Notes: a model not told the origin generated them from the sequence alone. Positions 13,552-49,459 are shown, counted from the first letter of the stretch. The stretch is DNA of 64,000 nt from Rhodobacterales bacterium (GCA_965221505.1 CBDCSI010000002.1:522052-586051), one strand, 5' to 3'. Made by a program: numbers and translations.

Positions 13552-13869
13552 GGGCCTATCCCCTCGCACGTTACACGCGTACGGAAACGCCGGGGCCTCG
13601 GCGGGCCTCCCCACGAGGATTCGACGCTTCGGTCGAGGATACCACGCCGTTCCGATCCGGGGAAACCCGGCCGCGCGCTCGGGACTGCGTCAGACGAACC
13701 GTCCAGGAGGAGGGGCCGACGCAGGCGCCGACGCTGCCGACCCGCCCTTTCCCCGTATCCTTGCGACGCAGACGAGACGAACCGGTTCGATCGCCGTTCC
13801 GCGTCGGGTCGTCCACGGCATGCGCCCCGTCTTGCGGCTTGCGGACGTTGCAGACGGAGCGTCGCGTCG

Positions 13870-13896
13870 AATCGTTTCAAACGGCGTGAAACGATT
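13870..13896. repeat. Perfect 10-bp inverted repeat AATCGTTTCA-n7-TGAAACGATT
   Basis: Read directly from the sequence. It is AT-rich in a GC-rich, ORF-free spacer between glcD and the RiPP precursor gene. Confidence 0.9.
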
Positions 13897-13935
13897 ACCC
13901 TTCGTTGCGAGGTTTTACAGTCGTATCAACGGGAT

Positions 13936-13967
13936 AATCGCTTCACCAGACCGGAGTATCGTTTCAC
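13936..13967. repeat. Two further direct copies of the same half-site (AATCGCTTCAC, TATCGTTTCAC), 21 bp apart
   Basis: Read directly from the sequence. Offsets from the first arm are 66 and 87 bp, which is close to helical phasing. Confidence 0.8.
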
Positions 13968-14298
13968 GGCGGCATCGAGCCGGGACGTTCTCCGCCGCCT
14001 CGCGGACGATTCCGTCCCAGGCAGGGAGAGTGTCCGCCGAACTGTCGCGCCCGAAGCGAATTCTTCGACCGACCGGCGCGCGCTCACGCGGATCGTGGAC
14101 AACGGCGGCCCGGAACTTCGGGCTTGGCGCCGGCGCAGGGCCTCCGTCAAGCGCCGCGTAACCTCGGCAGGCAGGCACGCTGCAGCCTGAAGAGACCGGG
14201 TCGGTTTGTCCCGGACGAGACCTTCGGCTTACCCCGGTCAGGAACCCCGATCCCGTCTCAGACGCTCCAGTTCCGCAAACGAGGCCTCGGGAGCGCCC

Positions 14299-14568
14299 TT
14301 ATCTGCAAATGCACACGTAACAGCTGCCGCATTCGCCTCCCGACATCCGGTCCATGTGCTCTTCCTTGAGTTCCGGCGACGGCGGAAGCACGAAGTTGGC
14401 GACTCCGTTCCCGTCCTCGTGGACCTTTACCTCGAAGCTCTCCGGCAAGTCGATGTCGCATTCGTCCTCGACGACCGCCTTGGGGTCGGCGACGAAGCGG
14501 GCCCGAAAATCTTCGTCCTCCTCCGCCCGACGCAGCAAGTGGTCCCGGATTTCCTCATACTTCTTCAT
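14299..14568 (-). CDS. NHLP (nitrile-hydratase-like leader peptide) family RiPP precursor; predicted core ECGSCYVCICR after a Gly-Gly site
   Basis: 89 codons. Leader MKKYEEIRDHLLRRAEEDEDFRARFVADPKAVVEDECDIDLPESFEVKVHEDGNGVANFVLPPSPELKEEHMDRMSGG has the NHLP layout. AAGGAG lies 6 nt before the ATG. The core is Cys-rich and uses A/T-ending codons. Confidence 0.8.
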   Translation of the reverse strand: MKKYEEIRDHLLRRAEEDEDFRARFVADPKAVVEDECDIDLPESFEVKVHEDGNGVANFVLPPSPELKEEHMDRMSGGECGSCYVCICR

Positions 14569-14580
14569 TTCGCTCTCCTT
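14569..14580 (-). promoter_or_regulatory. Shine-Dalgarno (AAGGAG) and 6-nt spacer of the precursor gene
   Basis: Reverse complement of 14566-14580 reads AAGGAGAGCGAAATG, the last three bases being the start codon. Confidence 0.7.
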
Positions 14581-14733
14581 CACGCGCCATGGCGACGAAT
14601 CCGTAGTGTGGTAGGAGACGGCAGGCGAGTCAACGAACGCGCAGTCCCAAGCCTGCCTCTCCGCCGCCAGACTTGGCGACGAGCGCAGGCGCCCGGACGC
14701 GGAGTCGAGAGCTCGGGCGCCTTCGTCGGCTCG

Positions 14734-14988
14734 TTCGAAGGTCGGCGGTTCGCGCGCCGGCCCGAGCGGCGGCAACCCCCGGTACACGTCGCCGAACGGC
14801 GCGATCCGGGCGCGTACGGCTTCGGCAAGGCTTCGGGAACGCGGCTCGCGTCCGACGGCCTCACGCAGAGCGCGCCGCGCTTCCTCTTCCATGGAGCGGC
14901 AATGCGCGGCGGCCCGAACGCGCAACCGCGTCTTCAGATCGTCGTCAGGGCTGCGGGTGGTAACGCTTGCCCCGGTCTCTTCCCGCAC
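14734..14988 (-). pseudogene. FitA/VapB-like ribbon-helix-helix antitoxin remnant; no stop of its own and no toxin partner
   Basis: DDDLKTRLRVRAAAHCRSMEEEARRALREAV...LAEAVRARIAPFG...PAREPPTF resembles RHH antitoxins. The frame reads through ~55 unrelated codons into the precursor ORF (track ORF 14299..14988). Confidence 0.5.
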
Positions 14989-15429
14989 TCCTGCGATCGC
15001 CGTTTCGGCGACGATAGCGGTACGATCGAGGACGCGTTCCGCTTTGCCGACCGTTCCGTTCCGGCGGATCGCCGCTGCTGCCCCGGTCGCCGCCGGCCGG
15101 CTCTGCGCTGCCGGGAGGAACGGTCTGCCTTCAGAGCGGCAACCGAACGGAAGACGAACCGGAGGACGACGTCTTCCGCCTTCGCTCCGAGCATACGGGG
15201 GGGTCGTTCCGGCCTCCCGAGCGAACCGGACCGGCCCCGGATGAAGTATCGGATCCTACGGCCCCTTGCGCATGGCCCCAATTCGAACCGGAGGTCCAAC
15301 GGCGCTATACCGCTTCTTGAGGATGCGCCGTCCCCGGCAGAACCGGACACGATCCGGCGGCTGCGCGCAGACGATACGCAGCGGGCGTCCGGGCAAGGCG
15401 TCCGAGCCGGTCGATAGAGGAACACGCCG

Positions 15430-16500
15430 ATGCGATCCCTGCATTTCGGTTCCGCGATGGTGGATACCATCGCTCTCGTCGCCACCGAGGACATCGAGCG
15501 CCTGACGCTCACGAACGAGGGGATCTCCTTCCTGATGGTGGAGACGGGACGGAAACTCCCGGCCGAATCCATCACCACCCATATCGGCGGCGGCGCGTGC
15601 AATACCGCCGTCTGCCTGCGCCGGCGCGGATGGCAAAGCACGGTCGTCGCGAAGGTCGGGACCGGCCTGAACGCCGCCGCCGTGCGGCAGCACCTCGTAC
15701 GGTGCGACGTCGAGTCGCAATTGATCGAGTGCGACTCCGCCACCGGCAGCGCCGTCATGGTCGCAAGCCACGACCGGAACGCCTCGATCTTCGTCCATCG
15801 GGGCGCCAACGAACTGCTGTCGGTCGCAGACCTTCCCGAATTCGACGGGTTCGACCTGGTATACGTCGCCCCGCTCTCGAGCGGGTCGGCGGACTGCTTC
15901 CCCGAAATCGTCCGGCGCGCGAAGGCCGCCGGAGCGCGTACCGCCGCCAACCCGGGAATTCGGCAACTGCAGTCCCGCAGCGAGGCGTTTCTGGGTGCGC
16001 TGCCGGACATCGACCTGCTCTCCGTCAACCGCCCGGAAGCGGACGCTCTGGTTCCGGCCCTGATGCGCGAGTCGCCGGGCGCGACAGACTTTCTGCCGCC
16101 GTCGGACCCTCCCGCTCTCGTCCGCCGGGGCTTGCGCTCGCAAGGGTGCGAGCTGGGACTCGCCGCCTTCATGCACCGGCTCCGTTTGATCGGCCCAAAG
16201 TGGATTTCCCTGACGGACGGGAACGACGGCGCCTATCTCTGCGGCGAGGAGGGCGTTTTCTGGCAGCCGAACGTGCCGACCACGGTTGCGGGCACGGCCG
16301 GCGCGGGCGACGCTTTCTGCTCCACCGTCGCCGCCTGCCTGATGGAGGGCATGAGTGCGGAGGATGCCCTCCTCGACGCCGCGTTGAACGCATCCGCCGT
16401 CGTCAGCGTGGTCGACACCACTGCCGGACTGCTGAAGCAGGGCGAGACCAAGTTCCGCCGAGCCGCGTATACGGGACCGCGAGCTCGGAGAATCGCCTGA
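15430..16500 (+). CDS. PfkB-family carbohydrate kinase
   Basis: GGGACNTAV near the N-terminus and GTAGAGDAFCSTV near the C-terminus. Length 356 aa. Confidence 0.8.
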   Translation: MRSLHFGSAMVDTIALVATEDIERLTLTNEGISFLMVETGRKLPAESITTHIGGGACNTAVCLRRRGWQSTVVAKVGTGLNAAAVRQHLVRCDVESQLIECDSATGSAVMVASHDRNASIFVHRGANELLSVADLPEFDGFDLVYVAPLSSGSADCFPEIVRRAKAAGARTAANPGIRQLQSRSEAFLGALPDIDLLSVNRPEADALVPALMRESPGATDFLPPSDPPALVRRGLRSQGCELGLAAFMHRLRLIGPKWISLTDGNDGAYLCGEEGVFWQPNVPTTVAGTAGAGDAFCSTVAACLMEGMSAEDALLDAALNASAVVSVVDTTAGLLKQGETKFRRAAYTGPRARRIA

Positions 16501-16689
16501 GCCGGCTGGCCGTCCTGAATTCCCAGCGTCCGCAGTCCGGTCACTCGCAGAGGGCGCGTCTGCCGGCAGCGAAGAATTGCGCTCAATGTCCGGGCGTTTG
16601 AGTTCCGAACCACGCGATAACGGACTCGGTCCTTCCGTTCCTGGTTGGCTACCCGCTGGCTGGGTCAACTCGAGTATTCGGTTGGCCGC

Positions 16690-17160
16690 TTGCCGACCCG
16701 ATGCCGAGAACGCAGAACCTGACGCCCACGGCGGCATCAGCTGGCGCAATTGATCCTCCGAGAGCGAATCCGCCCAGCGAACGGGTGGATAGTAACCGCC
16801 GCCTCCCGGAACGCGCCTCGCATGCCTTGGCGGCACTGGCCCAGAGTATTGCGGGTGTCCCCACTTCCGAGGATCGGAATCCACACCCCGCGGTCTCCAT
16901 GGCATACCGACCGGCGTAGCAACTGCCGAGGCGCATGTAGAGACATTCCAAGCCGCGGACAGCGGAATCTCCAGATGACGACGAGGGACGCTCGCCGCCC
17001 TGCAACGGCCGTCCGGCAATGCGCTCGACGGCTGCACGGAGTCAGACCGACTGCCTGGAGGACCGGGCCCGTCAGAGCGCCGGATACCAAGGTTGCGGAA
17101 TCGATACCGCACAAGACGACACGGTGCGGCAACGCACGGGAGAGAAGGGCCGAGATAGGA
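16690..17160 (-). pseudogene. P4-like tyrosine integrase remnant: catalytic domain only, at least 2 frameshifts
   Basis: Integrase boxes occur in the right order but in three frames: RRHLEIPLS (RxHxVPLS), GCGFRSS (HGFRSS), EAAVTIH (EAALAH) and VRWADSLSEDQLRQLMPPWA (YxRxDL..RRxLMxxWA, Tyr apparently lost). The N-terminal half is missing. Confidence 0.5.
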
Positions 17161-17230
17161 CGAAATTTGCAGGAAAGTCGTGTGAGTTATATTATCTCTG
17201 CGTGAATCGAGATTATGCAAGGTCGAAGCG

Positions 17231-18505
17231 ATGCTCTTGCGCTTCTCCGTGGAGAATCACCGCTCGATCGGCGAGCAACAGGAATTGGTGCTTGCGGCGT
17301 CGACGCTGAAGGACCGTTCCGACGGGCTGATACCCTGCTATGCCGCAGTCAGCGGCACGGTGGTTCCCGCTGCCGTAATTTACGGGGCCAACGCGTCCGG
17401 GAAGACAAGCGTGATCGACGCGCTATACACAATGAGAAAATGGGTTCTGCGGTCGCAGGACCGGGTGGAACCGAAAGGTGGAATACCCCGGAATGCGTAC
17501 CGTCTCGATCCAGCTTTCTCCGACAAACCGTCCCGCTTTGGAGTCGATTTCCTTCTTGACGGCGTCCGGTATGTCTACGGATTCGAGGCCACCGATGACG
17601 CGTTCACGTCGGAGTGGCTGTACGAAGTCCCTCGATCGCACGGCAGACGACTGTTCGAGCGAGAGGGTCAGCGATTCCATTTCGGACGGCAGCTCAGGGG
17701 GCCGAACAAAAGCGTCGCCGTACGCACCGGGTCCAACAGCCTGTTCCTGTGGGCCGCTGCCCAACGCGGCCATCCGCGTCTCTCTCCGATTCATGCGTAT
17801 TTTCGGGAAATGACCTTCCCTGTGTCGAGTTCCGCAAGACCGCTCGAAATGTCGTCCCGAGTCCTGCGAGATCCGCCGGACCATCGAGTGCTCGCCTTCC
17901 TCAAGTCGATCGGTACCGGTATCGTCGGATACCGAAGGAGACGATCAGCGACACCCGAGAAACGAGGCCTTCGACCGGAGGTCCCTGCGGCCCTCGACAG
18001 GGCTGCAGGCGTCGCCCTCTCTATGCCGCAGGATCGAGAGGATACGCGTCTGGGAGTCGAACTGGCCCGTCGAGCCAGAAGCGGGGCCCAGGTACGGCTG
18101 GATACGGAATCCGAGAGTTCCGGAACCCTTCGCCTTCTCGTCCTCCTGGATCAGGCATTCAGGGCACTGGACTCCGGGCGTCCGATGATTGTCGACGACC
18201 TGGACACCCACCTTCACACCTATGTCGTCGAAACGGTACTCGGGCTCTTCTGTTCCCTGGATCGAAATCCCAACGGTGCGCAATTGATCGCCACCACCCA
18301 CGACACGAACCTGATGAATTCCGCTCTCCTGAGACGCGATCAGATTTGGTTTACGGAGCGGACATCCGACGGGGCCACTGTTCTGTTTCCGCTTACCGAC
18401 TTTCGAACGCGTAAGGGCGACAACGTCGAATACGGGTACCTGCAGGGTCGATTCGGAGCGGTTCCCGGAAACGGCAACTTATCGACGCTGAGAGACTCGA
18501 TATGA
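17231..18505 (+). CDS. AAA-family ATPase (COG1106 / AbiLi-like, abortive-infection type)
   Basis: Walker A GANASGKTS and Walker B-like PMIVDDLDTHLH. C-terminus ATTHDTNLM...DQIWFTER is typical of AAA_21-type ATPases. Local GC looks low. Confidence 0.8.
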   Translation: MLLRFSVENHRSIGEQQELVLAASTLKDRSDGLIPCYAAVSGTVVPAAVIYGANASGKTSVIDALYTMRKWVLRSQDRVEPKGGIPRNAYRLDPAFSDKPSRFGVDFLLDGVRYVYGFEATDDAFTSEWLYEVPRSHGRRLFEREGQRFHFGRQLRGPNKSVAVRTGSNSLFLWAAAQRGHPRLSPIHAYFREMTFPVSSSARPLEMSSRVLRDPPDHRVLAFLKSIGTGIVGYRRRRSATPEKRGLRPEVPAALDRAAGVALSMPQDREDTRLGVELARRARSGAQVRLDTESESSGTLRLLVLLDQAFRALDSGRPMIVDDLDTHLHTYVVETVLGLFCSLDRNPNGAQLIATTHDTNLMNSALLRRDQIWFTERTSDGATVLFPLTDFRTRKGDNVEYGYLQGRFGAVPGNGNLSTLRDSI

Positions 18506-18597
18506 GTCGTCTCGATCACGGATCAGACACGTCAGGACGCTCCGCCCGAAAGGGTAAGCCGAGTCCCGCCTCGCGTCGTTCTGCGCGAGAAGGATAG
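18502..18597 (+). pseudogene. 31-codon ORF overlapping the ATPase stop (ATGA); possible truncated RloB/AbiLii-like partner
   Basis: MSRLDHGSDTSGRSARKGKPSPASRRSAREG*. The basic N-terminus resembles RloB-family starts. It ends 12 nt before the 3' end of the convergent endonuclease gene. Confidence 0.3.
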
Positions 18598-18609
18598 CAG
18601 AGCCCCACC

Positions 18610-19398
18610 TCATGTCGACGTTCTTGTAGGGTCTTCGCCTCGTACGAGTCTGTAATGCCGTTCCTCCACGACACGTACCTCATCGCCCAGCCGGGCCAGT
18701 TCGAACAGTGCCACACAGCCGTCGCCCATGAACTGCACAGACACCGCGCGGCACGTAAGGTGGGGAAATCTCTGCTCGGAAAAGCGAATGTCCTGCGTCG
18801 TCTGCACTACGCTGACCTGATCCGTACCGCCCTTTGCCTGAACCGGAATGACGACACGCTGTCCGTCCTTGTCGATTCCGACATACAGTTCGTCTATTTC
18901 AATCTGACCCAACCCCGTTACCGTCGTCCGCAGGTGATTCTGAAGGCTGTAGGTCGTCAGCCCGAGGAAAACGTCGATCAACCGATTGTACCGAACGATC
19001 GCAAGGAGCGACTGCTCGTCATTCAACGCATACTCTCGGATCAGCCCCGGCGTGGCATCCGGAATGCGAACCACATCGAGTCCCTCTTGCGGGACTACGC
19101 GTGTATTGGCCACAAGCCTGAAGCGATATCGCCCAAACCCGGCGCCTTCGATTATCCACTCGCGATTCCGGACTTGAGTATGACGAATCTTCTCGGGTAG
19201 CCTCTTCCTGTATCGATACGCGTATACGACGTCTCCAATATTCTTGACTGGCGGTATACCCAGAGCGGCAGCGCCCTCCGAAAGTTCGTCACGCGAAAAC
19301 TCGAACTCCGTAAGACCCTCGTCAAAATTTTCGAAAAACACTTTCTCAATGAGCGCGTCATATCGCCGTTGAGAATCAGACATGGGCAACGAATCCAC
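18610..19398 (-). CDS. Putative type II restriction endonuclease (partner of the upstream C5-methyltransferase)
   Basis: Overlaps the methyltransferase 3' end in the same operon. Candidate PD-(D/E)xK-like region EIDELYVGIDKDGQRVVIPVQAKGG. Alternative ATG start at 19383. Family not recognised. Confidence 0.6.
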   Translation of the reverse strand: MDSLPMSDSQRRYDALIEKVFFENFDEGLTEFEFSRDELSEGAAALGIPPVKNIGDVVYAYRYRKRLPEKIRHTQVRNREWIIEGAGFGRYRFRLVANTRVVPQEGLDVVRIPDATPGLIREYALNDEQSLLAIVRYNRLIDVFLGLTTYSLQNHLRTTVTGLGQIEIDELYVGIDKDGQRVVIPVQAKGGTDQVSVVQTTQDIRFSEQRFPHLTCRAVSVQFMGDGCVALFELARLGDEVRVVEERHYRLVRGEDPTRTST

Positions 19399-20707
19399 CG
19401 ATGCGCTCGCGTTCGATATCCTCTTGCTTCCGTTTTTTTACGCCGCTCCTCCGATCTCGGCGCCCGGGCGGCGGCGCGACGCCAAAATACCCCGCCGCGT
19501 GAGAACGGTCCAACGAGAGGAGCGACGCATCCCCTAGACGGATCGGCTCTTCCGGTCTGTCGGGAAGACATCCCAACGCCTCGGCAACGCTACCCGCTAC
19601 GGCTCTCGCTAGCGGCGGGGGAACCGCGTTCCCGATCTGTCGTGCGCCGTGCCACTTCGTGACATGAAAACGAAACCAATCCGGAAAGCCGTGCAGCCTC
19701 GCCATTTCGCGCACGGTTATGCACCGATCGAATTTGTAGTGTATCGGTCGAGGACTGGTAAAGGCGCCTCTCGCTCCGTCCGTTCCTGCCCGCAGCGTGT
19801 TGGACACGCCTGCTTCGGCGAGCCTATAGAACCTGCTGATCGGCTCCACCGTCCCTGGCTCAGTTTGGCCAAACCGCATATGCGAAATAGCCGTGTGCGC
19901 TGTCCTGGCGCTCGACGTCATGACGCCGGAGTCCCAATCTCGTATGTAACCGAGGTGCCACGAATCGTCCGTAAGGCACCGAAGTCGGGCCGCATAGGGT
20001 GACGGCTCGCCGTAGTCCCGCGTAGCGACAGCGTCGGACCGTTTAAGCGCCTCGAAGCGATCTGCGTCCGGGAGATCGCCAATGGCGTCCTCACAGCATA
20101 CCCCGTCGGGCAAGCCTTCGTCGGAGCTTCGCCTTCCTGCAATGTTGGTCGACGGAGTAGGGTACTCCGGTATGGCTTCGCCTTTCCTCGCACCGAGTAT
20201 GAACAGTCGCTCCCGACTCTGCGGCGTGTCAAAGTGCCCCGCGTTCAGGACTTGCCACGGAAGCCGTACGTCGTAACCGAACTTCGCAAACTCGCCCAGG
20301 AACTCGTCCAGGAACATCCGATGTTTGCCGACGGTCAAGCCCTTTACGTTTTCGAACACGAACGCCCGCGCTTGAAGATCGACCACAATACGGACGAATT
20401 CGCGAACCAATCGATTGCGGGGGTCGTCCAGCGCGCGCTGCCCGATAAGCGAAAATCCCTGACAAGGGGCGCCGCCGAAGACGCAATCTATGCTGCCTCT
20501 CTCGACCCCTGCTGCCGCCAGGATTTCTTCCCCGGACACGCTCTCGATCGCGTTGGGGATCATCGCAGTTTGAGGAAAGTTGTATTTGTGGGTCGCGCAG
20601 TGCACAGGGTCCACTTCTACGGCGGCCGCTATATCGAAACCGGCCTGTTCGAAACCCAGGCTCAACCCGCCCACGCCGCAGAACAAGTCTATCCCGATCG
20701 GTCTCAT
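19376..20707 (-). CDS. DNA (cytosine-5)-methyltransferase
   Basis: Motif I DLFCGVGGLSLGF, motif IV GGAPCQGFS, motif VI ENVKGL, motif X RQIGNAVPPPLA. Confidence 0.9.
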   Translation of the reverse strand: MRPIGIDLFCGVGGLSLGFEQAGFDIAAAVEVDPVHCATHKYNFPQTAMIPNAIESVSGEEILAAAGVERGSIDCVFGGAPCQGFSLIGQRALDDPRNRLVREFVRIVVDLQARAFVFENVKGLTVGKHRMFLDEFLGEFAKFGYDVRLPWQVLNAGHFDTPQSRERLFILGARKGEAIPEYPTPSTNIAGRRSSDEGLPDGVCCEDAIGDLPDADRFEALKRSDAVATRDYGEPSPYAARLRCLTDDSWHLGYIRDWDSGVMTSSARTAHTAISHMRFGQTEPGTVEPISRFYRLAEAGVSNTLRAGTDGARGAFTSPRPIHYKFDRCITVREMARLHGFPDWFRFHVTKWHGARQIGNAVPPPLARAVAGSVAEALGCLPDRPEEPIRLGDASLLSLDRSHAAGYFGVAPPPGRRDRRSGVKKRKQEDIERERIGGFVAHV

Positions 20708-21861
20708 CCCCTGCCTTTCGCCCTTCTAATATTCCTTCGACGGAGTAATGACAGTTCTCAGTCTCTGCAATTCGCGACTGATGACGACAGACAAAACTCC
20801 CGATTCGCGAGAAGCGGCGTTCGAGACCGGCGGTTGCGCGTTGCGAAGCTGCGAGCGCCTCGCCCGACGCATCAAACGCTCGCCTAGTCTCTCTCGCGTT
20901 CCTCGCTCCCTTTTCAGTTAGGTTCGAACAGTCGAGAGTCCACTTGGGCAATCTCGCCTCAATACCGTCATGACCGTTCCGAGACCGGCCGTGAGCGGAG
21001 ACTGTCCAGCACCTACGCCCTCTCCAGGGAACGCCGACTTCCCGCTCCCCGATCCGACGATGCTGTCTGGCGACTTCCTCACCTCCTCGCTTCCCGGACC
21101 GTATCGCGATCCCTCCTTGGGGTCAATCCGGGGGCGCCGATCCGGCCGGCTCCTGGTCATGGGTAGAACTCGCCCTGTCACGATTCAGCCTGGGAACTGG
21201 CCTTCTCGGCCTCGCCAAGTCTCGTCTTCCTGCCGGACGAAATCGACTGTACCGGGAAGCCGCCCGAGCATGGGACGGCGTTTGCGCAAAATGAGCCCTC
21301 TCAGCGGGGCACCCTCTGTTCGACCCACAGGACCTACGCGACGGCAGAGGCCATTTGGGTGCGCGGTCGCGGACCGCACCGGCCGCAGAGCACGGCCGAA
21401 GGGGAACATTCACGTATCTCAGCGGGGCAGAACGCTGAGTTCGGTCGGGGTTCCGCATCTGGATGAGAGCGAACGAGTGCGGACCACGCCGACGCTCCGA
21501 CTCTCGTTGCGGATGCGCAGCCAGAGCGATCAGCGCTCCATTGACAAGAGATTCGCGACAGACGGGCCGGCCGGACCGAGGGCGCAAGCGAAGACGGTCC
21601 GAGCGTCTCCCGCTCCAAGCCGGGGAACGCGACGACCTCGCAAGAGACCGGCTGATTCCCAACGCCGGACCAGTCCCTCGTCCGTCGACGGTCAACCCTG
21701 CCGCGACCCTCTTCCCTGCAGAAAGCGGCAACGGAATCTTCGACAGCGGTTCCGTCCTGCATCCGCGAGCGAGCGGCCCTATCATGCTGCAACTGCGCGA
21801 GGCGTACGCACTGCTGACTGGCGCCGGACAGGTTCGAGTGTCGCTCGGAGGAAAAAGATTC

Positions 21862-25589: not shown

Positions 25590-25904
25590 ATGAGATCCGT
25601 CGGGCTAAAGCGTCTCAACAATCGGTTGAGCAAGTATGTTCGTCTCGCGGCGTCGGGCGAGACGATTCTCGTAACAGACCGGGACCGCGTGCTGGCGGAG
25701 CTCGTCCCACCGAGGGAGATACGGGAACCGGCTCTAGCCGATGCCTCCCTGGACGCCGCGGTGCGATCAGGCGTTCTGGCCGGGCCGGCCCTGTCCGGTA
25801 GTGCGCCGCCGCCTAGACCGGAGCCGGTTGCAACGCTGGAAGAGATTCTTGCGGAGCTGGATGAGGATCGGCGTGACCGGTGTTCTATCTCGATACGTCG
25901 GTAG
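25590..25904 (+). CDS. Type II antitoxin, Phd/YefM-like (VapB role)
   Basis: MRSVGLKRLNNRLSKYVRLAASGETILVTDRDRVLAELVP. Overlaps the downstream PIN gene by 25 nt. Confidence 0.75.
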   Translation: MRSVGLKRLNNRLSKYVRLAASGETILVTDRDRVLAELVPPREIREPALADASLDAAVRSGVLAGPALSGSAPPPRPEPVATLEEILAELDEDRRDRCSISIRR

Positions 25905-26275
25905 CTCTCGCCCACCTCCTCGCTGAGAATCGCCAACCTCCGGATACTCTGTGGGAGAAAGCGCTTGTATCCAGCCGGCTTCTCGAATACGAACTATGGA
26001 CCCGGCTACACGGCCGTGGCTTGGCGGCGTCCCATGGCGAGGCGGCGCGCTGGCTGGTCAGACGAGTAGCGTTGCTGGAACTCACCCAGCCGGTACTTTC
26101 GCGTGCACTGTCCGCCTTTCCTGTGACGCTCCGAACCCTTGATTCCCTGCACCTCGCGTCGTGCTCCTATCTGGCAGATCGCGGTTACCTGATATCCCTC
26201 GCGAGCTACGACCGGCGGATGAACACGGCCGCCATTGCTATGGGGATTCCGCTCGTCGAACCGGAAGCAACGTAG
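25880..26275 (+). CDS. vapC: PIN-domain toxin VapC
   Basis: GTG start. FYLDTSVALAHLL (first acidic residue), then LDSLHLASC. Length 131 aa. Confidence 0.8.
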   Translation: MFYLDTSVALAHLLAENRQPPDTLWEKALVSSRLLEYELWTRLHGRGLAASHGEAARWLVRRVALLELTQPVLSRALSAFPVTLRTLDSLHLASCSYLADRGYLISLASYDRRMNTAAIAMGIPLVEPEAT

Positions 26276-37734: not shown

Positions 37735-38193
37735 CCCGTGTTGCCGCTGGCGGCGCGAGGGCGACAAGAGCGCTCCCGAAAGCGATTTCAGCCCTGAGGG
37801 TGGGTTGGTCGGCAGTCGTCGCACCCACCCGGAAGACCGTAGCGGCCTTTTCGCCGATCCTGCGCCAGACCGAACTTCACCCGGGCATGCCCGCGGTTTT
37901 CGCTTGTTTTCGGAGAGTTTGCATCGATACGAGGTGGTGCGCCAATGGAATCGTTCCGCATGGTTCGACGCCGAGCCGGAGAAGCGCCTCGCCAGGAATT
38001 GGGAGCCGTGCGAGAAGCGTGAGGGGAGGGTCCGGTGGGTTTGCGCAACCGACTTCGTTGCAGGTCGGTTGGGTGAGAGCGGCCCCCTCTGGCCCGGTCG
38101 CGAGGCGATTGGCCCATCTGCTGTAGCCGGGCGAGATGGGTTCCCGACCAGATGCTATAAGGCCTCCCCAGTACAGGATCTGAGGACAACCGT

Positions 38194-38463
38194 GTGTTCG
38201 CGAAATTCTCCGAAGACGCGATTTCGCTGTCCGACCTGGGGGTCGATCCCGGCCGTGTCGTCAAGCATGTGACGGACCTGCGCCGGCCCGTGCTGCTCAC
38301 CCGTCGCGGGCGCGGCGTGGCCGTGATGCAATCGGTGGCCGACTACGAGGCGGCTTCCGAAGAGCGCGAATTCGTTCGGGCGGTCGTTGCCGGTCTCGTC
38401 GACAATGAGGCAAGCCGTGCGCTGTCGATCGAAGACGCCAGAACCCGGCTCGGTCTGAAGTAA
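38194..38463 (+). CDS. Type II antitoxin, Phd/YefM family
   Basis: GTG start. ISLSDLGVDPGRVVKHVTDLRRPVLLTRRGRGVAVMQSVADYEA is a typical Phd/YefM N-domain. Confidence 0.75.
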   Translation: MFAKFSEDAISLSDLGVDPGRVVKHVTDLRRPVLLTRRGRGVAVMQSVADYEAASEEREFVRAVVAGLVDNEASRALSIEDARTRLGLK

Positions 38464-38801
38464 ACCGAACCGAGATCGCCGATTCCGCGCTGGCCGACCT
38501 GGAGTCGAACCGGACCTGGTACGCCGGAATGCACGTGCCCGAGTTGGGCGAGCGCTCGAGCGACGAATTCGTCGCGAGCGTCGAGGCGCTCGCCGTTCGT
38601 CCCGACCCGGAGCGTATCGTCCCCGCATCCGAACCGGCCTCGCACCACACCGTGCGCACCGTCCGAGCGAAACGAACCCGCGAGCACCGATGCCGAATCG
38701 AGGCGCAGGAGTCCGGTCGACGGCCCGAATCGACGGGGCATCGCGACGAACGCGTACTGTCGTGCGGCGGGCGTCTGTTGACAAGAACCGGAACGCGATA
38801 G
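38460..38801 (+). pseudogene. ParE/RelE-like toxin, apparently degenerate
   Basis: The frame overlapping the antitoxin stop reads VNRTEIADSALADLESNRTWYAG...FVASVEALAVRPDPERIVPA. The codon at the expected start position is GTA, and no ATG/GTG/TTG occurs before an internal Met at 38529. The C-terminal half is poorly toxin-like. Confidence 0.4.
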
Positions 38802-46483: not shown

Positions 46484-46497
46484 GTCTGAGGTGAATC

Positions 46498-47595
46498 ATG
46501 TATGTCTGGGAACGTCCCGAATGGCCCGGCTTCGCCTGGGACGAAGGAAGGCTCCTGGAGCCGCTGGCGACTGCGCGGCTGAAGCAGGATCGGCTGCTCG
46601 GAAGGATGTCCAACCTCAGCCACGAGCTGAAGCTCGAGGCGCAGCTTGAGGCGCTCACGGAAGAAATCGTGAAGAGCTCGGAGATCGAAGGCGAGATCCT
46701 TTCCCGCGACAGCGTGCGTTCCTCAGTCGCGCACCGTCTCGGCATCGATGCTCCCGCCGTCCTGCCGGTCGATTGTCGAACGGAAGGCATCGTCGAGATG
46801 ACTATCGACGCCATGGAGAACTATCGGGATTCGCTCACGTCGGAGAGACTCTTCGGCTGGCAGGCGGCGCTCTTCCCCACCGGGTACGCGGGGATGCACA
46901 GGATCAGGACCCGTGCCTGGCGCGACGATACGGAGGGACCGATGCAGGTGGTATCGGGACCGATCGGCCGCCGGCGCGTGCACTTTCAGGCGCCTCCCGC
47001 CGAGCGCGTCGACGCCGAAATGGAGAGGTTTCTGGGTTGGTTCGACCGTCGGAACCGGCCCGAGGGACTGCTGCGGGCCGGTCTTGCGCATCTCTGGTTC
47101 GTGACCGTCCACCCGTTCGAGGACGGCAACGGCCGAATCGCTCGGGCGATCGCGGATCTAGCGCTGGCGCAATCGGAGGATTCGGGACAGCGCTTCTACA
47201 GCATGTCGAGTCAGATCCGACGTAACCGCTCCGACTACTACCGCATGCTCGAGCGCTCGCAGAGGTCCGCTCTCGACGTGACCAACTGGCTGGTATGGTT
47301 TATCGGCTGTTTCTCGCGCGCGATCGAGTCCTCGGAGGCGACGTGTGCCCAGGTTCTCCGCAAATCCGAATTCTGGCGACGCCGTTCGCGAGAACCGTTC
47401 ACCGCGAGACAACATCGAGTACTCAATCGATTCCTGGACGGATTCGAAGGGAAGTTGACCGCCAGGAAGTGGGCAGCGATAGGCAAGTGCTCGATTCCGA
47501 CTGCACAGCGCGACATCGCCGATTTGGTCGAGCGAAACGTACTTCGACGCAGCCTGGGCGGCATCAGGAACACGAGCTACGACTTGGTTGAGTAG
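46498..47595 (+). CDS. Fic family protein (class II, N-terminal DUF4172-like region)
   Basis: Active-site motif HPFEDGNGRIARA. An internal inhibitory-helix motif (S/T)xxxE(G/N) is present as SSEIEG. Confidence 0.9.
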   Translation: MYVWERPEWPGFAWDEGRLLEPLATARLKQDRLLGRMSNLSHELKLEAQLEALTEEIVKSSEIEGEILSRDSVRSSVAHRLGIDAPAVLPVDCRTEGIVEMTIDAMENYRDSLTSERLFGWQAALFPTGYAGMHRIRTRAWRDDTEGPMQVVSGPIGRRRVHFQAPPAERVDAEMERFLGWFDRRNRPEGLLRAGLAHLWFVTVHPFEDGNGRIARAIADLALAQSEDSGQRFYSMSSQIRRNRSDYYRMLERSQRSALDVTNWLVWFIGCFSRAIESSEATCAQVLRKSEFWRRRSREPFTARQHRVLNRFLDGFEGKLTARKWAAIGKCSIPTAQRDIADLVERNVLRRSLGGIRNTSYDLVE

Positions 47596-47835: not shown

Positions 47836-49026
47836 TTATCCCTTCGACGCTTTCGCCTGTCTGCCCCTGGCCGCTTCACCGGAAACGTAAGGGCGAGACG
47901 CGTCCGCAAACCGCCGGAAGGTGTCGAGTCGGGATACGCAGAGAAGCTGGAGGGCCTCACGGTAGAGCGTGCGTCCCTCGAGGGTGCTGCAGACGAGAGC
48001 CACGGCGAAGCGCTTTCCGACGCGGGCGATCTGCATGCTGTAGATATCTCCCCCAGTTCCGCTGCCTCGAATTGCCCTAGGCCGCCCCAACTCGGCTTCA
48101 TACTCGGCTCGGAACTGATCTCGAGGCATGCAGCCAACATCGTACATACGACGCAACACGATCGGCGCGCTGACGTTGAACCTGCGGGCCAGTCGTTTCA
48201 GCGCGACCCTCCGGTCCTCTCCCGCGCGGCATTCGTCAATGAACGGCTCCAGTGGCACGAGCACCTGTGCGGCGACGCGGCTGCACCATGCCTCGCCCGC
48301 ATGTGAAGGCTGCACATGAGGTCCGGAATCCCACAACGCCGATTGCCCGAGCCACAAATGCGCCAATCCGTGGACGAGGGTGAACAATTGCGCCGCCTTG
48401 GCGTCGGCAGCGTTGACGAACACGAGCGGCGCGCGCTCGTCGACCAGGGCAACTCCCCGAAACTCGGCTGGATCGAGCGCTCGGTGCGTGTTGTTGCCGA
48501 CGATTCCCGATACCATGACCAACACGCCGAGCGCATCGGCCGCGTCGATCGTGTGGCGAAAGACGTCGAGCCAGTTCGGAAGAGCGCATCGTTCGTCGAG
48601 ATCGAGACGGAGCGCGGAGCGAATGTCCGCTGCCACGCGCTCCACGTCGCTTGCCGGCGTCGCCGAGCCGACGAACGGAATCGGGTCAAGCCCTTCGAGA
48701 CATGCGTATTCCCGATACCAGTCCTGGCGACGCTCGCAGAGGTAGACGGCGTCGAGCAAGTCAGGGCTCGGGCGCCCCGGCGCTCCGCCGTCCGCGACCC
48801 GGAAGTCGGGGATCGGAACGGGCTCGTCCGGCGGTTCCGGTAGAAACAAATAGCCGACCGGCACACGGACAGTCCTGGCGAACCGATCCAGCTGCTTGAG
48901 CGTAGGCCGGATCTCGCCCGCCTCCCACTGAACGTATTTCGGGAACCGGCGGGTCAACGCATCGACATCGATCCCGGCTCTTCGGCGCGCCCAGCGCAAC
49001 AACGTTGGCCGGATCTGAACCCGCAT
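47836..49026 (-). CDS. XRE-type HTH fused to an ImmA/IrrE (DUF955) metallopeptidase-like domain, with a variant HGxxH motif
   Basis: N-terminus IRPTLLRWARRRAGIDVDALTRRF...LKQLDRFARTVRVPVGYLFLPEPP. Peptidase motif region is FTLVHGLAHLWLG. GGAGGGGGA precedes ATG 49026. Confidence 0.75.
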   Translation of the reverse strand: MRVQIRPTLLRWARRRAGIDVDALTRRFPKYVQWEAGEIRPTLKQLDRFARTVRVPVGYLFLPEPPDEPVPIPDFRVADGGAPGRPSPDLLDAVYLCERRQDWYREYACLEGLDPIPFVGSATPASDVERVAADIRSALRLDLDERCALPNWLDVFRHTIDAADALGVLVMVSGIVGNNTHRALDPAEFRGVALVDERAPLVFVNAADAKAAQLFTLVHGLAHLWLGQSALWDSGPHVQPSHAGEAWCSRVAAQVLVPLEPFIDECRAGEDRRVALKRLARRFNVSAPIVLRRMYDVGCMPRDQFRAEYEAELGRPRAIRGSGTGGDIYSMQIARVGKRFAVALVCSTLEGRTLYREALQLLCVSRLDTFRRFADASRPYVSGEAARGRQAKASKG

Positions 49027-49459
49027 TATCTCCCCCTCCGGCGGCCGAAATGCCGGGAATCGAAGGCCGACCGCCACTTGCAGTACCGGCGGCCGAAGGA
49101 GGTCTCTACACGACGGGCGTGCTTGCGCTCGTCGTCCCGATACCGAATTACGACGAGTGTACCGGTCACAAGGGTCATCACGTGTCTCCGTCTGCCGCCA
49201 GCGGTCCCAAACGACGCCTCACCGCGAATGATATCCGCAGCTCGATTCCGAATCGGACCGCTTCGCTTGAGAAGGGATCTCTCGCGGAGCGACGTCTCGA
49301 AGCGAGTCCGGGGTCGACCCGCGACCGCTTCACGTCAGGTGGGTGGGGGCGACAGTCGACCCGTCCGCGTGTCGCGCGGGAACCCTTGCGGTCCGGCAGT
49401 CGGGGACGTTTCCCCGCCCGGGCACTCGTTGCCCGAAGCGGACTGCGGCGATGCTGTCC

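What the first reader, a model, noticed from the sequence alone, without database searches (positions are those of the whole stretch)
14299..14568. Orphan NHLP-leader RiPP precursor with an 11-residue, four-cysteine core (…MSGG | ECGSCYVCICR)
This 89-codon ORF has a strong AAGGAG Shine-Dalgarno 6 nt upstream of its ATG. Its leader follows the layout of nitrile-hydratase-like leader peptides. It starts with an acidic helical segment (RRAEEDEDFRARFVADPKAVVEDE). Next comes LPESFEVKVHED...NFVLPP, then an acidic linker that ends in Gly-Gly. The C-terminal core is C-x2-C-x2-C-x-C plus one Ser and one Tyr. It is encoded with A/T-ending codons (GAA, TGT, TAC, ATT, AGA) that look foreign to this genome. 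NHLP precursors are normally clustered with a YcaO/cyclodehydratase, LanM-type synthetase or radical-SAM maturase, and with a C39-peptidase ABC exporter that cleaves after GG. None of these is recognisable anywhere in the 64 kb. The neighbours are glcDEF, a decayed RHH antitoxin, a PfkB kinase and a decayed island. So this is either a precursor matured in trans, a member of an undescribed pairing, or a recently stranded relic. A core this short and cysteine-dense could also suit metal binding or disulfide/thioether chemistry.
Basis: partly seen in the sequence, partly recalled or inferred. Interest (0 to 1): 0.8.

Follow-up and report, generated by a model that had tools for sequence, protein, structure and literature searches.

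The report
Stand-alone NHLP-leader RiPP precursor gene
This is a real, intact gene for a "nitrile-hydratase-like leader" precursor of a modified peptide natural product, sitting alone in a strain-variable gap between housekeeping genes; lone precursors far from their processing enzymes are already well documented for this family, so the find is a new but ordinary member.

Summary
The 89-codon ORF (14299-14568, minus strand) exists as described. AAGGAG lies 6 nt before the ATG. The product is MKKYEE…MSGG|ECGSCYVCICR. It passes the curated NHLP leader model (TIGR03793, 65.5 bits against a cutoff of 50.9) and matches solved NHLP leaders. It keeps almost every conserved leader position, and similarity stops at Gly77-Gly78.

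Pfam scans of about 60 ORFs found no YcaO, LanM/LanC, radical-SAM, MNIO or C39-ABC gene in the 64 kb. tblastn with relatives' cluster proteins found no remnants either.

Its nearest relatives (38-53% identity, leader only) are sponge-symbiont-type "srp" proteusin precursors. Most of these sit beside an NHLM export cassette and a fused TOMM YcaO cyclodehydratase. Several relatives are also stand-alone, and two of them share a chromosome with full clusters.

A collinear relative (GlcD 83% identical) carries a DUF6508 gene where the window has the RHH antitoxin plus the NHLP gene. The gene is therefore accessory DNA. No database peptide shares the core.

Most likely the peptide is matured in trans: Cys to thiazol(in)e by a YcaO, then cleavage after GG and export by a C39 ABC transporter. 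The window's genome could not be searched, so a stranded precursor is not excluded.

Verdict: new member of a known kind, low-to-moderate interest.

The parts
14299..14568 (-). 89-codon NHLP-leader RiPP precursor gene, including the TAA stop at 14299-14301
   Evidence: Translation. TIGR03793 65.5 bits against a 50.9 cutoff. PDB 8TB1 NHLP leader E 5e-8. Positional GC 0.65/0.35/0.81.
14335..14568 (-). Leader region, residues 1-78, ending in the double-glycine site M75-S76-G77-G78. Hydrophobic residues sit at -4 (M75), -7 (M72) and -12 (L67).
   Evidence: The HMM match ends at residue 78, model position 77 of 77. In a 79-sequence alignment the leader keeps A15, D18, F21, R22, D28, P29, P42, V49, H50, E51, L61, P62, P63, L67, G77 and G78, and conservation collapses after G78. 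DNA similarity to the closest relative (L001) is 75% over 14374-14571 only.
14302..14334 (-). Predicted core peptide ECGSCYVCICR (residues 79-89): C80, S82, C83, C86, C88
   Evidence: Direct reading. No other peptide among the 1389 family hits shown or the 43 genome loci has this core.
14575..14580 (-). Shine-Dalgarno AAGGAG, 6 nt upstream of the ATG
   Evidence: Direct reading of the sequence.
14854..14988 (-). FitA/VapB-like RHH antitoxin ORF. The GTG start is at 14988 and the RHH domain at 14854-14970. It is in the same frame as the NHLP gene with no intervening stop, and no toxin gene is adjacent.
   Evidence: Pfam FitA-like_RHH 47.6 bits, model positions 1-39 of 39. The ORF list shows a 229-aa GTG ORF at 14299-14988. 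No PIN or other family on neighbouring frames.
13552..15429 (.). Variable intergenic slot between glcD and PfkB that holds the RHH plus NHLP pair
   Evidence: blastn collinearity with relative L047: PfkB 16433-15430 matches L047 7948-8951 and glcD 13551-12134 matches L047 10001-11418. In between, L047 has a 1.05-kb segment with a DUF6508 gene instead.

Best explanation
The ORF is a genuine, intact precursor peptide of the NHLP (nitrile-hydratase-like leader, 'proteusin'-type) RiPP family. It lies in a small accessory DNA segment, together with an orphan RHH antitoxin, inserted between conserved glcD and PfkB genes of a high-GC, probably alphaproteobacterial genome.

Proposed mechanism:
- Shown: the 78-residue leader is a folded NHLP domain.
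- Inferred: the leader docks onto a modifying enzyme encoded elsewhere in the genome. The most likely enzyme is a fused TOMM cyclodehydratase (leader-binding domain plus YcaO), as found next to its closest relatives.
- Inferred: that enzyme converts some or all of C80, C83, C86, C88 (and possibly S82) into thiazol(in)e or oxazoline rings.
- Inferred: an NHLM-type C39-peptidase ABC exporter then cuts after G77-G78 and exports the 11-residue product.

The maturation and export steps would have to act in trans, because none of these genes lies within 64 kb.
For: Gene identity:
- TIGR03793 scores above its cutoff.
- It matches the solved NHLP leaders 8TB1 and 9CJX and the NHase alpha C-terminal region.
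- The SD and coding-type GC pattern are present.
- Conserved leader positions are retained, with an abrupt loss of conservation after GG.

Docking and cleavage motif:
- The segment L67-K-E-E-H-M72-D-R-M75-S-G-G corresponds to the L(X)4L / LxEEQLExIxAG segment of relatives. That motif is required for the YcaO MprC to act on an NHLP leader, and conservative replacements are tolerated (PMC12455567).
- Hydrophobic residues at -4, -7 and -12 fit double-glycine leaders (established knowledge).

Relatives:
- 30 of 43 loci carry the unknown 365-aa gene and 24 carry the fused TOMM cyclodehydratase; the two ABC genes are in most (34 by the length filter) and a HlyD-like gene in 26.
- In the scanned example L002, the fused TOMM cyclodehydratase scores TIGR03882 134 bits plus TIGR03604 278 bits, NHLM_micro_ABC1 scores 864.7 bits and ABC2 scores 679 bits; both ABC models are the best matches, though ABC2 falls just under its curated cutoff of 709.4.
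- Cys-rich cores (LCCCG, LCCCW) of this clade are reported to give azole RiPPs (bioRxiv 10.1101/2023.06.09.544420).

Precedent for trans action:
- Remote precursors are a stated family trait (PMC2887384).
- L005 is stand-alone while L006 and L013, on the same chromosome, have the exporter cluster.
- L007 is an array of at least 3 NHLP genes with no maturase nearby, while L010, about 200 kb away, has the exporter set.

Core composition: with one Ser and four Cys it suits cyclodehydration better than lanthionine formation.
Against: - No maturase or exporter is shown to exist in this genome. The window's contig could not be retrieved.
- None of the best 120 of more than 7705 srp-type YcaO relatives lies on a contig of the window's length, 1,749,871 nt. 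This is a weak negative because only 120 are listed.
- The gene is a database singleton. Its closest relative is 51-53% identical with a different core and is also stand-alone.
- The gene is absent from the syntenic locus of the nearest relatives, so recent acquisition without partner genes is possible.
- No promoter-like or terminator-like site was detected.
- No expression or peptide data exist.
Confidence: 0.5

Rival explanations
1. Stranded precursor. The gene arrived, or was left, in a variable slot without any cognate maturase or exporter in the genome. It is still intact but makes no mature product, or only an unprocessed 89-aa protein.
For: - Nothing related to RiPP processing lies in the 64 kb, not even remnants.
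- The gene is absent at the collinear locus of relatives L047, L048 and L050.
- It is paired with an orphan antitoxin that lacks its toxin and its own stop codon, which suggests a degraded mobile segment.
- It is a singleton core in all databases searched.
Against: - The leader is fully intact, with near-complete retention of family-conserved residues and the double-glycine motif.
- Leader GC3 (0.83) is close to the host gene level (0.86).
- A strong SD is retained.
- None of these would be expected to persist for long without selection.
Confidence: 0.25
2. The precursor is matured in trans by a different enzyme class: radical-SAM (proteusin-type epimerase or C-methyltransferase, or thioether-forming), LanM, MNIO, or an undescribed enzyme, rather than a YcaO.
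For: - NHLP leaders are known to serve several maturase classes, namely TOMM, LanM and others (PMC2887384; halogenases and lanthionine synthetases in the title and abstract of PMC12537861).
- Relatives with non-Cys cores (L004, L010, L033) have the exporter plus an unknown 365-aa protein with no Pfam or NCBIfam hit, and no YcaO.
Against: - Only one Ser and no Thr limits lanthionine chemistry.
- The closest Cys-rich relatives pair with YcaO.
- No such gene is in the window.
Confidence: 0.15
3. An essentially unmodified double-glycine peptide. The leader serves only for C39-ABC export, and the 11-mer acts as a disulfide-bonded or metal-binding peptide (CxxC…CxC).
For: - The double-glycine motif resembles that of class II (unmodified) bacteriocins (PMC2887384).
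- Four Cys in 11 residues could form two disulfides or a metal site (inference).
Against: - No precedent was found here for an unmodified NHLP product.
- No exporter is nearby.
- An 11-residue peptide is very short for a class II bacteriocin.
Confidence: 0.05
4. The real product is the 229-aa GTG ORF (14299-14988) that fuses the RHH antitoxin to the NHLP domain, or the ORF is a chance frame.
For: There is no stop codon between the RHH and the NHLP frame.
Against: - The NHLP homology starts within 5 residues of the ATG at 14568, as in all relatives, which begin there.
- A strong SD precedes that ATG.
- Similarity to L001 begins exactly at the ATG.
- The 64-codon spacer has GC2 of 0.64, which is noncoding-like.
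- A chance ORF is excluded by the HMM E-value of 2.9e-18.
Confidence: 0.03

Closest known systems
NHLP leader peptide family RiPP precursors (TIGR03793; Haft, Basu & Mitchell 2010, PMC2887384)
   Same: - About 78-residue leader homologous to the C-terminal part of the nitrile hydratase alpha subunit.
- It ends in Gly-Gly and is followed by a short hypervariable core rich in Cys/Ser.
- It scores above the curated cutoff.
- Location away from processing genes is a described trait of the family.
   Different: - The core ECGSCYVCICR is not found in any other member retrieved.
- No NHLM export cassette or maturase lies within 64 kb.
- It sits next to an orphan RHH antitoxin.
srp ('sponge-derived RiPP proteusin') precursors with LCCCW / LCCCG cores, from phylogenetically diverse sponge symbionts (Nguyen et al. 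2021, as cited in bioRxiv 10.1101/2023.06.09.544420 and PMC12426817)
   Same: - These are the closest leader relatives (38-50% identity).
- They have Cys-dense, very short cores after an (A/G)G site.
- They share the LxEEx(L/M) segment before the cleavage site.
- The genomes holding the relatives are almost all MAGs of sponge-symbiont-type lineages.
   Different: - The srp core is 5-6 residues (L-C-C-C-W/G), strongly conserved, and embedded in a conserved cluster of HlyD-like, ABC1, ABC2, YcaO, FAD oxidase and methyltransferase genes.
- The window peptide has an 11-residue C-x2-C-x2-C-x-C core, no terminal Trp and no cluster.
MprE precursors and the MprC/MprD proteusin cyclodehydratase system (PMC12455567; structure PDB 8TB1)
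   Same: - Best solved-structure match (E 5e-8 over residues 11-78).
- An NHLP leader feeds a YcaO that prefers Cys and installs 2-6 azolines on diverse cores.
   Different: - Mpr precursors are encoded with their enzymes.
- Identity is modest.
- The window peptide has L(X)4M instead of L(X)4L.
Dispersed Nif11/NHLP precursors processed in trans (for example the N11P family with an unlinked LanM, discussed in PMC2887384)
   Same: A precursor gene located far from a single shared maturase and exporter.
   Different: - Those are Nif11-type leaders with LanM chemistry, usually in multi-copy families.
- Here there is a single NHLP copy, and the enzyme is unknown.

Membership tests
NHLP leader peptide RiPP precursor family (TIGR03793) | Scores at or above the curated cutoff of the family HMM over the whole leader | tested here: met
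   65.5 bits against a 50.9 cutoff, E 2.9e-18, residues 5-78 on model positions 3-77 of 77.
NHLP leader peptide RiPP precursor family (TIGR03793) | Homology to the nitrile hydratase alpha subunit but without the catalytic metal-binding segment | tested here: met
   - It aligns only to NHase alpha positions 114-165.
- The 89-aa protein has no CTLCSC-type motif; compare the true NHase alpha in L045.
NHLP leader peptide RiPP precursor family (TIGR03793) | [quoted passage not shown] | tested here: met
   - G77 and G78 align with family columns that are 81% and 92% Gly, and conservation collapses after them.
- The core has 4 Cys and 1 Ser in 11 residues.
NHLP leader peptide RiPP precursor family (TIGR03793) | Co-occurrence in the genome with the NHLM export cassette (TIGR03794, TIGR03796, TIGR03797) and a maturase | not testable with these tools
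   - These genes are absent from the 64-kb window.
- The rest of the genome could not be retrieved.
- The family definition allows distant location (PMC2887384).
srp sponge-derived proteusins | Conserved LCCCW-type core (terminal Trp brominated) | tested here: not met
   The core is ECGSCYVCICR, with no Trp. Relatives carry LCCCG, LCCCGI, LCCCL or LCCCW.
srp sponge-derived proteusins | Precursor embedded in the conserved cluster (exporters, YcaO cyclodehydratase, oxidase or halogenase) | tested here: not met
   No cluster genes or remnants are in the window.
TOMM / linear azol(in)e-containing peptide precursor | A cyclodehydratase (YcaO with a leader-binding partner) that acts on the peptide | not testable with these tools
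   None is in the window and the genome is unavailable. The inference rests only on relatives' context and on core composition.
Class II lanthipeptide (LanM) precursor with NHLP leader | LanM gene present, and a core with Ser/Thr to dehydrate plus Cys | tested here: inconclusive
   There is no LanM or LanC domain in the window. The core has only one Ser and no Thr, so at most one ring could form. Genome-wide status is unknown.

The most novel reading that the evidence does not exclude
The RHH plus NHLP pair is a small mobile 'precursor-only' cassette. Sponge-type symbionts would exchange such cassettes to feed new cores into resident, horizontally shared srp/TOMM machinery, a form of natural combinatorial biosynthesis by transfer of precursors alone. 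Alternatively, the C-x2-C-x2-C-x-C core is the substrate of an enzyme class not yet linked to NHLP leaders.
Probability: 0.1. Interest if true: 0.55.

Novelty: new member of a known kind. Interest (0 to 1): 0.25.

Why it matters
If the peptide is made, ECGSCYVCICR would be a new, very compact, poly-thiazol(in)e (or otherwise Cys-modified) proteusin-type product. It comes from an uncultured, probably symbiotic alphaproteobacterium.

It adds a concrete case of a precursor gene travelling separately from its enzymes. That is relevant to genome-mining tools such as antiSMASH and RODEO, which rely on clustering and would miss it.

Beyond that it does not change what is known. The leader family, the orphan arrangement and the likely chemistry are all described already.

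Tried and rejected
- Retrieving the window's own contig. Exact-product look-ups failed for the precursor, P0001, GlcF and the called GlcD P0277.
I searched 5.8 G proteins with a profile of 12 srp-type YcaO proteins and looked for hits on a 1,749,871-nt contig. None was among the 120 listed of more than 7705 hits, which is inconclusive.
- The genome-contig scan did not contain the window's genome. It returned only 38-51% relatives.
- The JGI metagenome scan with exact 8-mers of the peptide found no relative.
- The full HMMER search of 1.84 G representatives found nothing closer than about 49% identity and no shared core.
- Decayed-cluster hypothesis. tblastn of 214 relatives' cluster proteins against the window hit only generic ABC ATPase and GlcD/GlcE FAD domains, so it is rejected for this 64 kb.
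- Alternative coding on overlapping or antisense frames, and toxin remnants next to the RHH: no Pfam hit at E ≤ 0.1.
- No sigma-70 promoter or intrinsic terminator consensus around the gene. This is uninformative in a 67% GC genome.
- No Rfam family in the window, and no meaningful flanking direct or inverted repeats.
- The foreign-codon argument is not significant.
- Flank comparison with the closest relative L001 shows similarity confined to the leader-coding part, with no shared cassette.

Full report
**Observation**

The minus strand of 14299-14568 encodes MKKYEEIRDHLLRRAEEDEDFRARFVADPKAVVEDECDIDLPESFEVKVHEDGNGVANFVLPPSPELKEEHMDRMSGGECGSCYVCICR, followed by TAA. AAGGAG lies at 14575-14580, six bases (AGCGAA) before the ATG.

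The ORF is not a chance frame of a 67% GC genome:
- Its positional GC is 0.65/0.35/0.81.
- Leader GC3 is 0.83, against 0.86 for 22 confident genes of the window.
- It scores 65.5 bits (E 2.9e-18) on NCBIfam TIGR03793 'leader_NHLP', above the curated cutoff of 50.9. The match runs from residue 5 to residue 78 and from model position 3 to the last position, 77.
- Pfam sees the same region as the C-terminal part of nitrile hydratase alpha, at 26.7 bits, just below the cutoff.
- The best solved-structure matches are the NHLP leaders 8TB1 (E 5e-8) and 9CJX, followed by true nitrile hydratases.

**Leader and core**

I aligned the peptide with 78 short relatives taken from a full HMMER search of 1.84 billion representative proteins. 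That search gave 1389 hits at E ≤ 1e-3 and none at E ≤ 1e-30.
- The window peptide keeps almost all strongly conserved positions: A15, D18, F21, R22, D28, P29, P42, V49, H50, E51, L61, P62, P63, L67, G77 and G78.
- It deviates only conservatively: F25 for L, N58 for H, M72 for L.
- Conservation disappears right after G78. This is the signature of a leader followed by a hypervariable core, as described for the family (PMC2887384).
- The segment L67-KEEH-M72-DR-M75-SGG places hydrophobic residues at -12, -7 and -4 from the cut site, as in double-glycine leaders (established knowledge).
- The same segment corresponds to the L(X)4L / LxEEQL segment that an NHLP-specific YcaO (MprC) needs, with conservative substitutions tolerated (PMC12455567).
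- The 11-residue core ECGSCYVCICR is unique. No peptide in the genome loci, the 5.8-billion-protein word search (3 hits only), the representative search or the JGI metagenomes shares it.

The codon argument is weak. Four of 11 core codons end in A/T (p about 0.05 against background, p = 0.21 against the leader), TAC was miscounted, and only AGA is rare.

**Surroundings**

I scanned about 60 ORFs covering the 64 kb against Pfam. In window order they are:
- putA, a TPR protein, parC-like, an SDR, cobalamin adenosyltransferase and a D-serine-dehydratase-like gene.
- glcF, glcE and glcD, then the NHLP gene, then a FitA-like RHH antitoxin.
- PfkB, then a 59% GC island with an AAA_21 ATPase, an unknown protein and a C5 DNA methylase, then a second PfkB.
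- Mannitol dehydrogenase, an SDR, a PIN toxin, PGM, sugar and Bmp ABC transporters, PGI, FAA hydrolase and Phd/YefM.
- An amidohydrolase, Fic/DUF4172, an M78 peptidase, desaturase/PTA, CN hydrolases and an Opp system.

There is no YcaO, LanM/LanC, radical-SAM, MNIO or C39 ABC gene. tblastn with 214 proteins from the clusters of relatives hit only generic ABC ATPase domains and the FAD domains of GlcD/GlcE, so there are no decayed cluster remnants either. Overlapping and antisense frames have no family hits. Rfam gives nothing. Promoter and terminator consensus scans give nothing.

The RHH ORF (GTG at 14988) matches its Pfam model end to end. It has no partner toxin and no stop codon before the NHLP stop, so a 229-aa in-frame ORF exists on paper. 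Three observations favour the 89-aa product: the SD, the start of homology at the ATG in all relatives, and the noncoding-like GC2 of the spacer.

**Relatives and what they are clustered with**

A scan of 185,579 species genomes returned 43 loci at 31-56% best-segment identity (38-51% for the full-length leader matches), not including the window's own genome. Nearly all are MAGs of lineages typical of marine sponge symbionts, such as Ca. Foliamicus, Ca. Porisulfidus, Ca. Palauibacter, Vicinamibacterales, Longimicrobiales, Nitrospirales, Binatia and Dehalococcoidia. Most carry tiny cores after AG: LCCCG, LCCCGI, LCCCL or LCCCW. This is the published 'srp' family, the sponge-derived RiPP proteusins. 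It is described as having an LCCCW core, azole formation, bromination of the terminal Trp, wide distribution across phyla and very high transcription (bioRxiv 10.1101/2023.06.09.544420; PMC12426817).

Clustering all flanking ORFs and scanning representatives shows a conserved neighbourhood:
- A HlyD-like adaptor (TIGR03794, 89 bits, sub-threshold).
- NHLM_micro_ABC1 with a C39 peptidase (864.7 bits).
- NHLM_micro_ABC2 (679 bits).
- A fused TOMM cyclodehydratase (TIGR03882 plus TIGR03604).
- A FAD_binding_4 oxidase, CMAS-type methyltransferases, an MMPL protein and a GlnE-like protein.
- A 365-aa protein with no Pfam or NCBIfam hit, found in 30 loci.

So the window's leader belongs to a clade whose normal partners are a YcaO cyclodehydratase and the classical NHLM exporter.

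**Are stand-alone precursors unusual in this clade? No.**
- L001 holds the closest relative (P0002, 51-53% identical, core SCGEGEGLCLPGVCKIIG). It sits among purine-biosynthesis, DUF433 and TRAP-transporter genes.
- L005 is flanked by a Calx-beta adhesin and IS21 IstB, while L006 and L013 on the same chromosome (OZ242003.1) have the exporter set.
- L007 is an array of at least three NHLP genes next to a histidine kinase, while L010, about 200 kb away on the same chromosome (OZ242017.1), has the exporter set.
- L009, L022 and L025 are also stand-alone.
- The founding paper lists remote location of precursors as a family feature. [quoted passage not shown]

**Synteny**

The GlcD of the window has relatives at 77-83% identity. 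Contig L047 (83%) is collinear with the window from PGM through SDR, mannitol dehydrogenase and both PfkB genes to glcDEF, at 69-77% nucleotide identity. It differs in two places:
- Between PfkB and glcD it has a 1.05-kb segment with a DUF6508 gene, where the window has the 1.9-kb RHH plus NHLP segment.
- Between the two PfkB genes it has 565 bp, where the window has the 5.4-kb methylase/ATPase island.

L048 and L050 also lack any NHLP gene upstream of glcD, and tblastn finds none in these loci. The precursor is therefore accessory DNA in a variable slot. It is not a conserved resident of this locus.

**Interpretation**

Firmly shown: this is a genuine, intact NHLP-family precursor gene with a new core, alone within 64 kb, in a variable slot. 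The rest is inferred. Approximate weights for the whole chain:
- Trans maturation by a TOMM-type YcaO (Cys to thiazol(in)e), then cleavage after G78 and export by an NHLM C39 ABC transporter: about 0.5. This is the best-supported mechanism because it is what the closest Cys-rich relatives are wired for, the docking and cleavage motifs are intact, and the core (four Cys, one Ser) suits cyclodehydration.
- Stranded precursor without enzymes in the genome: about 0.25.
- Another or a new maturase class: about 0.15.
- An unmodified disulfide or metal-binding peptide: about 0.05.
- The RHH fusion or a non-gene: 0.03 or less.

They cannot be separated without the rest of the genome, which I could not reach. 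An indirect attempt through contig lengths of YcaO homologues was inconclusive.

**Novelty and score**

This is a new member of a known kind. The leader family, the likely chemistry and the orphan arrangement are all described. What is new is only the particular core and the genomic setting beside an orphan antitoxin. Interest is 0.25.

Noticed in passing
window 16433-21858: A low-GC (about 59%) 5.4-kb island lies between the two PfkB genes. It holds an AAA_21 (AbiEii/OLD-like) ATPase (17231-18505), an unknown 262-aa protein (18610-19398) and a C5 cytosine DNA methylase (19376-20707). The collinear relative L047 has only 565 bp there, so this is probably a mobile restriction-modification or defence module.
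   Followed up: partly
window 14854-14988 (ORF continues in frame to 14299): The FitA/VapB-like RHH antitoxin has a full-length domain match but no adjacent toxin and no stop codon of its own. On paper it reads through into the NHLP gene as a 229-aa ORF. The nearest PIN-domain gene is 11 kb away (25877-26275).
   Followed up: partly
L002, L012, L033 and 27 other loci (for example L002:16199-17326, L033:11870-12964): A roughly 365-375-aa protein is the most widely conserved neighbour of these sponge-symbiont NHLP precursors (30 loci). It is present even where no YcaO is, and it has no Pfam or NCBIfam hit. It is a candidate uncharacterised component of the srp-type clusters.
   Followed up: partly
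L002-L039 (YcaO genes, alignment A2): The fused TOMM cyclodehydratases of these clusters are 59-66% identical across very different phyla (Vicinamibacterales, Gemmatimonadota, Nitrospirales, Gammaproteobacteria, Binatia). They have more than 7705 database relatives at E ≤ 1e-30. This is consistent with the reported spread of the srp cluster across sponge microbiomes by horizontal transfer.
   Followed up: partly
L007:7550-10270: A tandem array of at least three (possibly six) roughly 90-110-aa NHLP-type precursor genes in a Dehalococcoidia MAG has no maturase or exporter within 8-10 kb. An exporter locus (L010) lies about 200 kb away on the same chromosome.
   Followed up: partly
window 25877-26275, 38161-38801, 46495-47595, 47836-49218: The window is rich in toxin-antitoxin and defence-type genes. 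It has a PIN toxin, a Phd/YefM antitoxin followed by a 130-aa ORF with no family hit, a Fic/DUF4172 protein and an M78 (IrrE-like) peptidase. These lie mostly in patches of lower GC (62-65%).
   Followed up: no
proteins P0127, P0133, P0172 and others: Many of the best family hits are 150-400-aa proteins with 2-4 separate NHLP/NHase-alpha-like stretches. These could be tandem leader-domain repeats or gene-call fusions of precursor arrays. Their nature was not examined.
   Followed up: no
L001:17062-20291; L005:6214-9798; L007:3-3521; L022:10355-15892; L025:2390-6229: Stand-alone precursors in relatives often lie next to giant Calx-beta, cadherin or fn3 repeat proteins; the L001 neighbour, uncharacterised here, is called at 7439 aa. 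These are 'eukaryote-like' adhesins typical of symbionts. Whether the association is more than chance was not tested.
   Followed up: no
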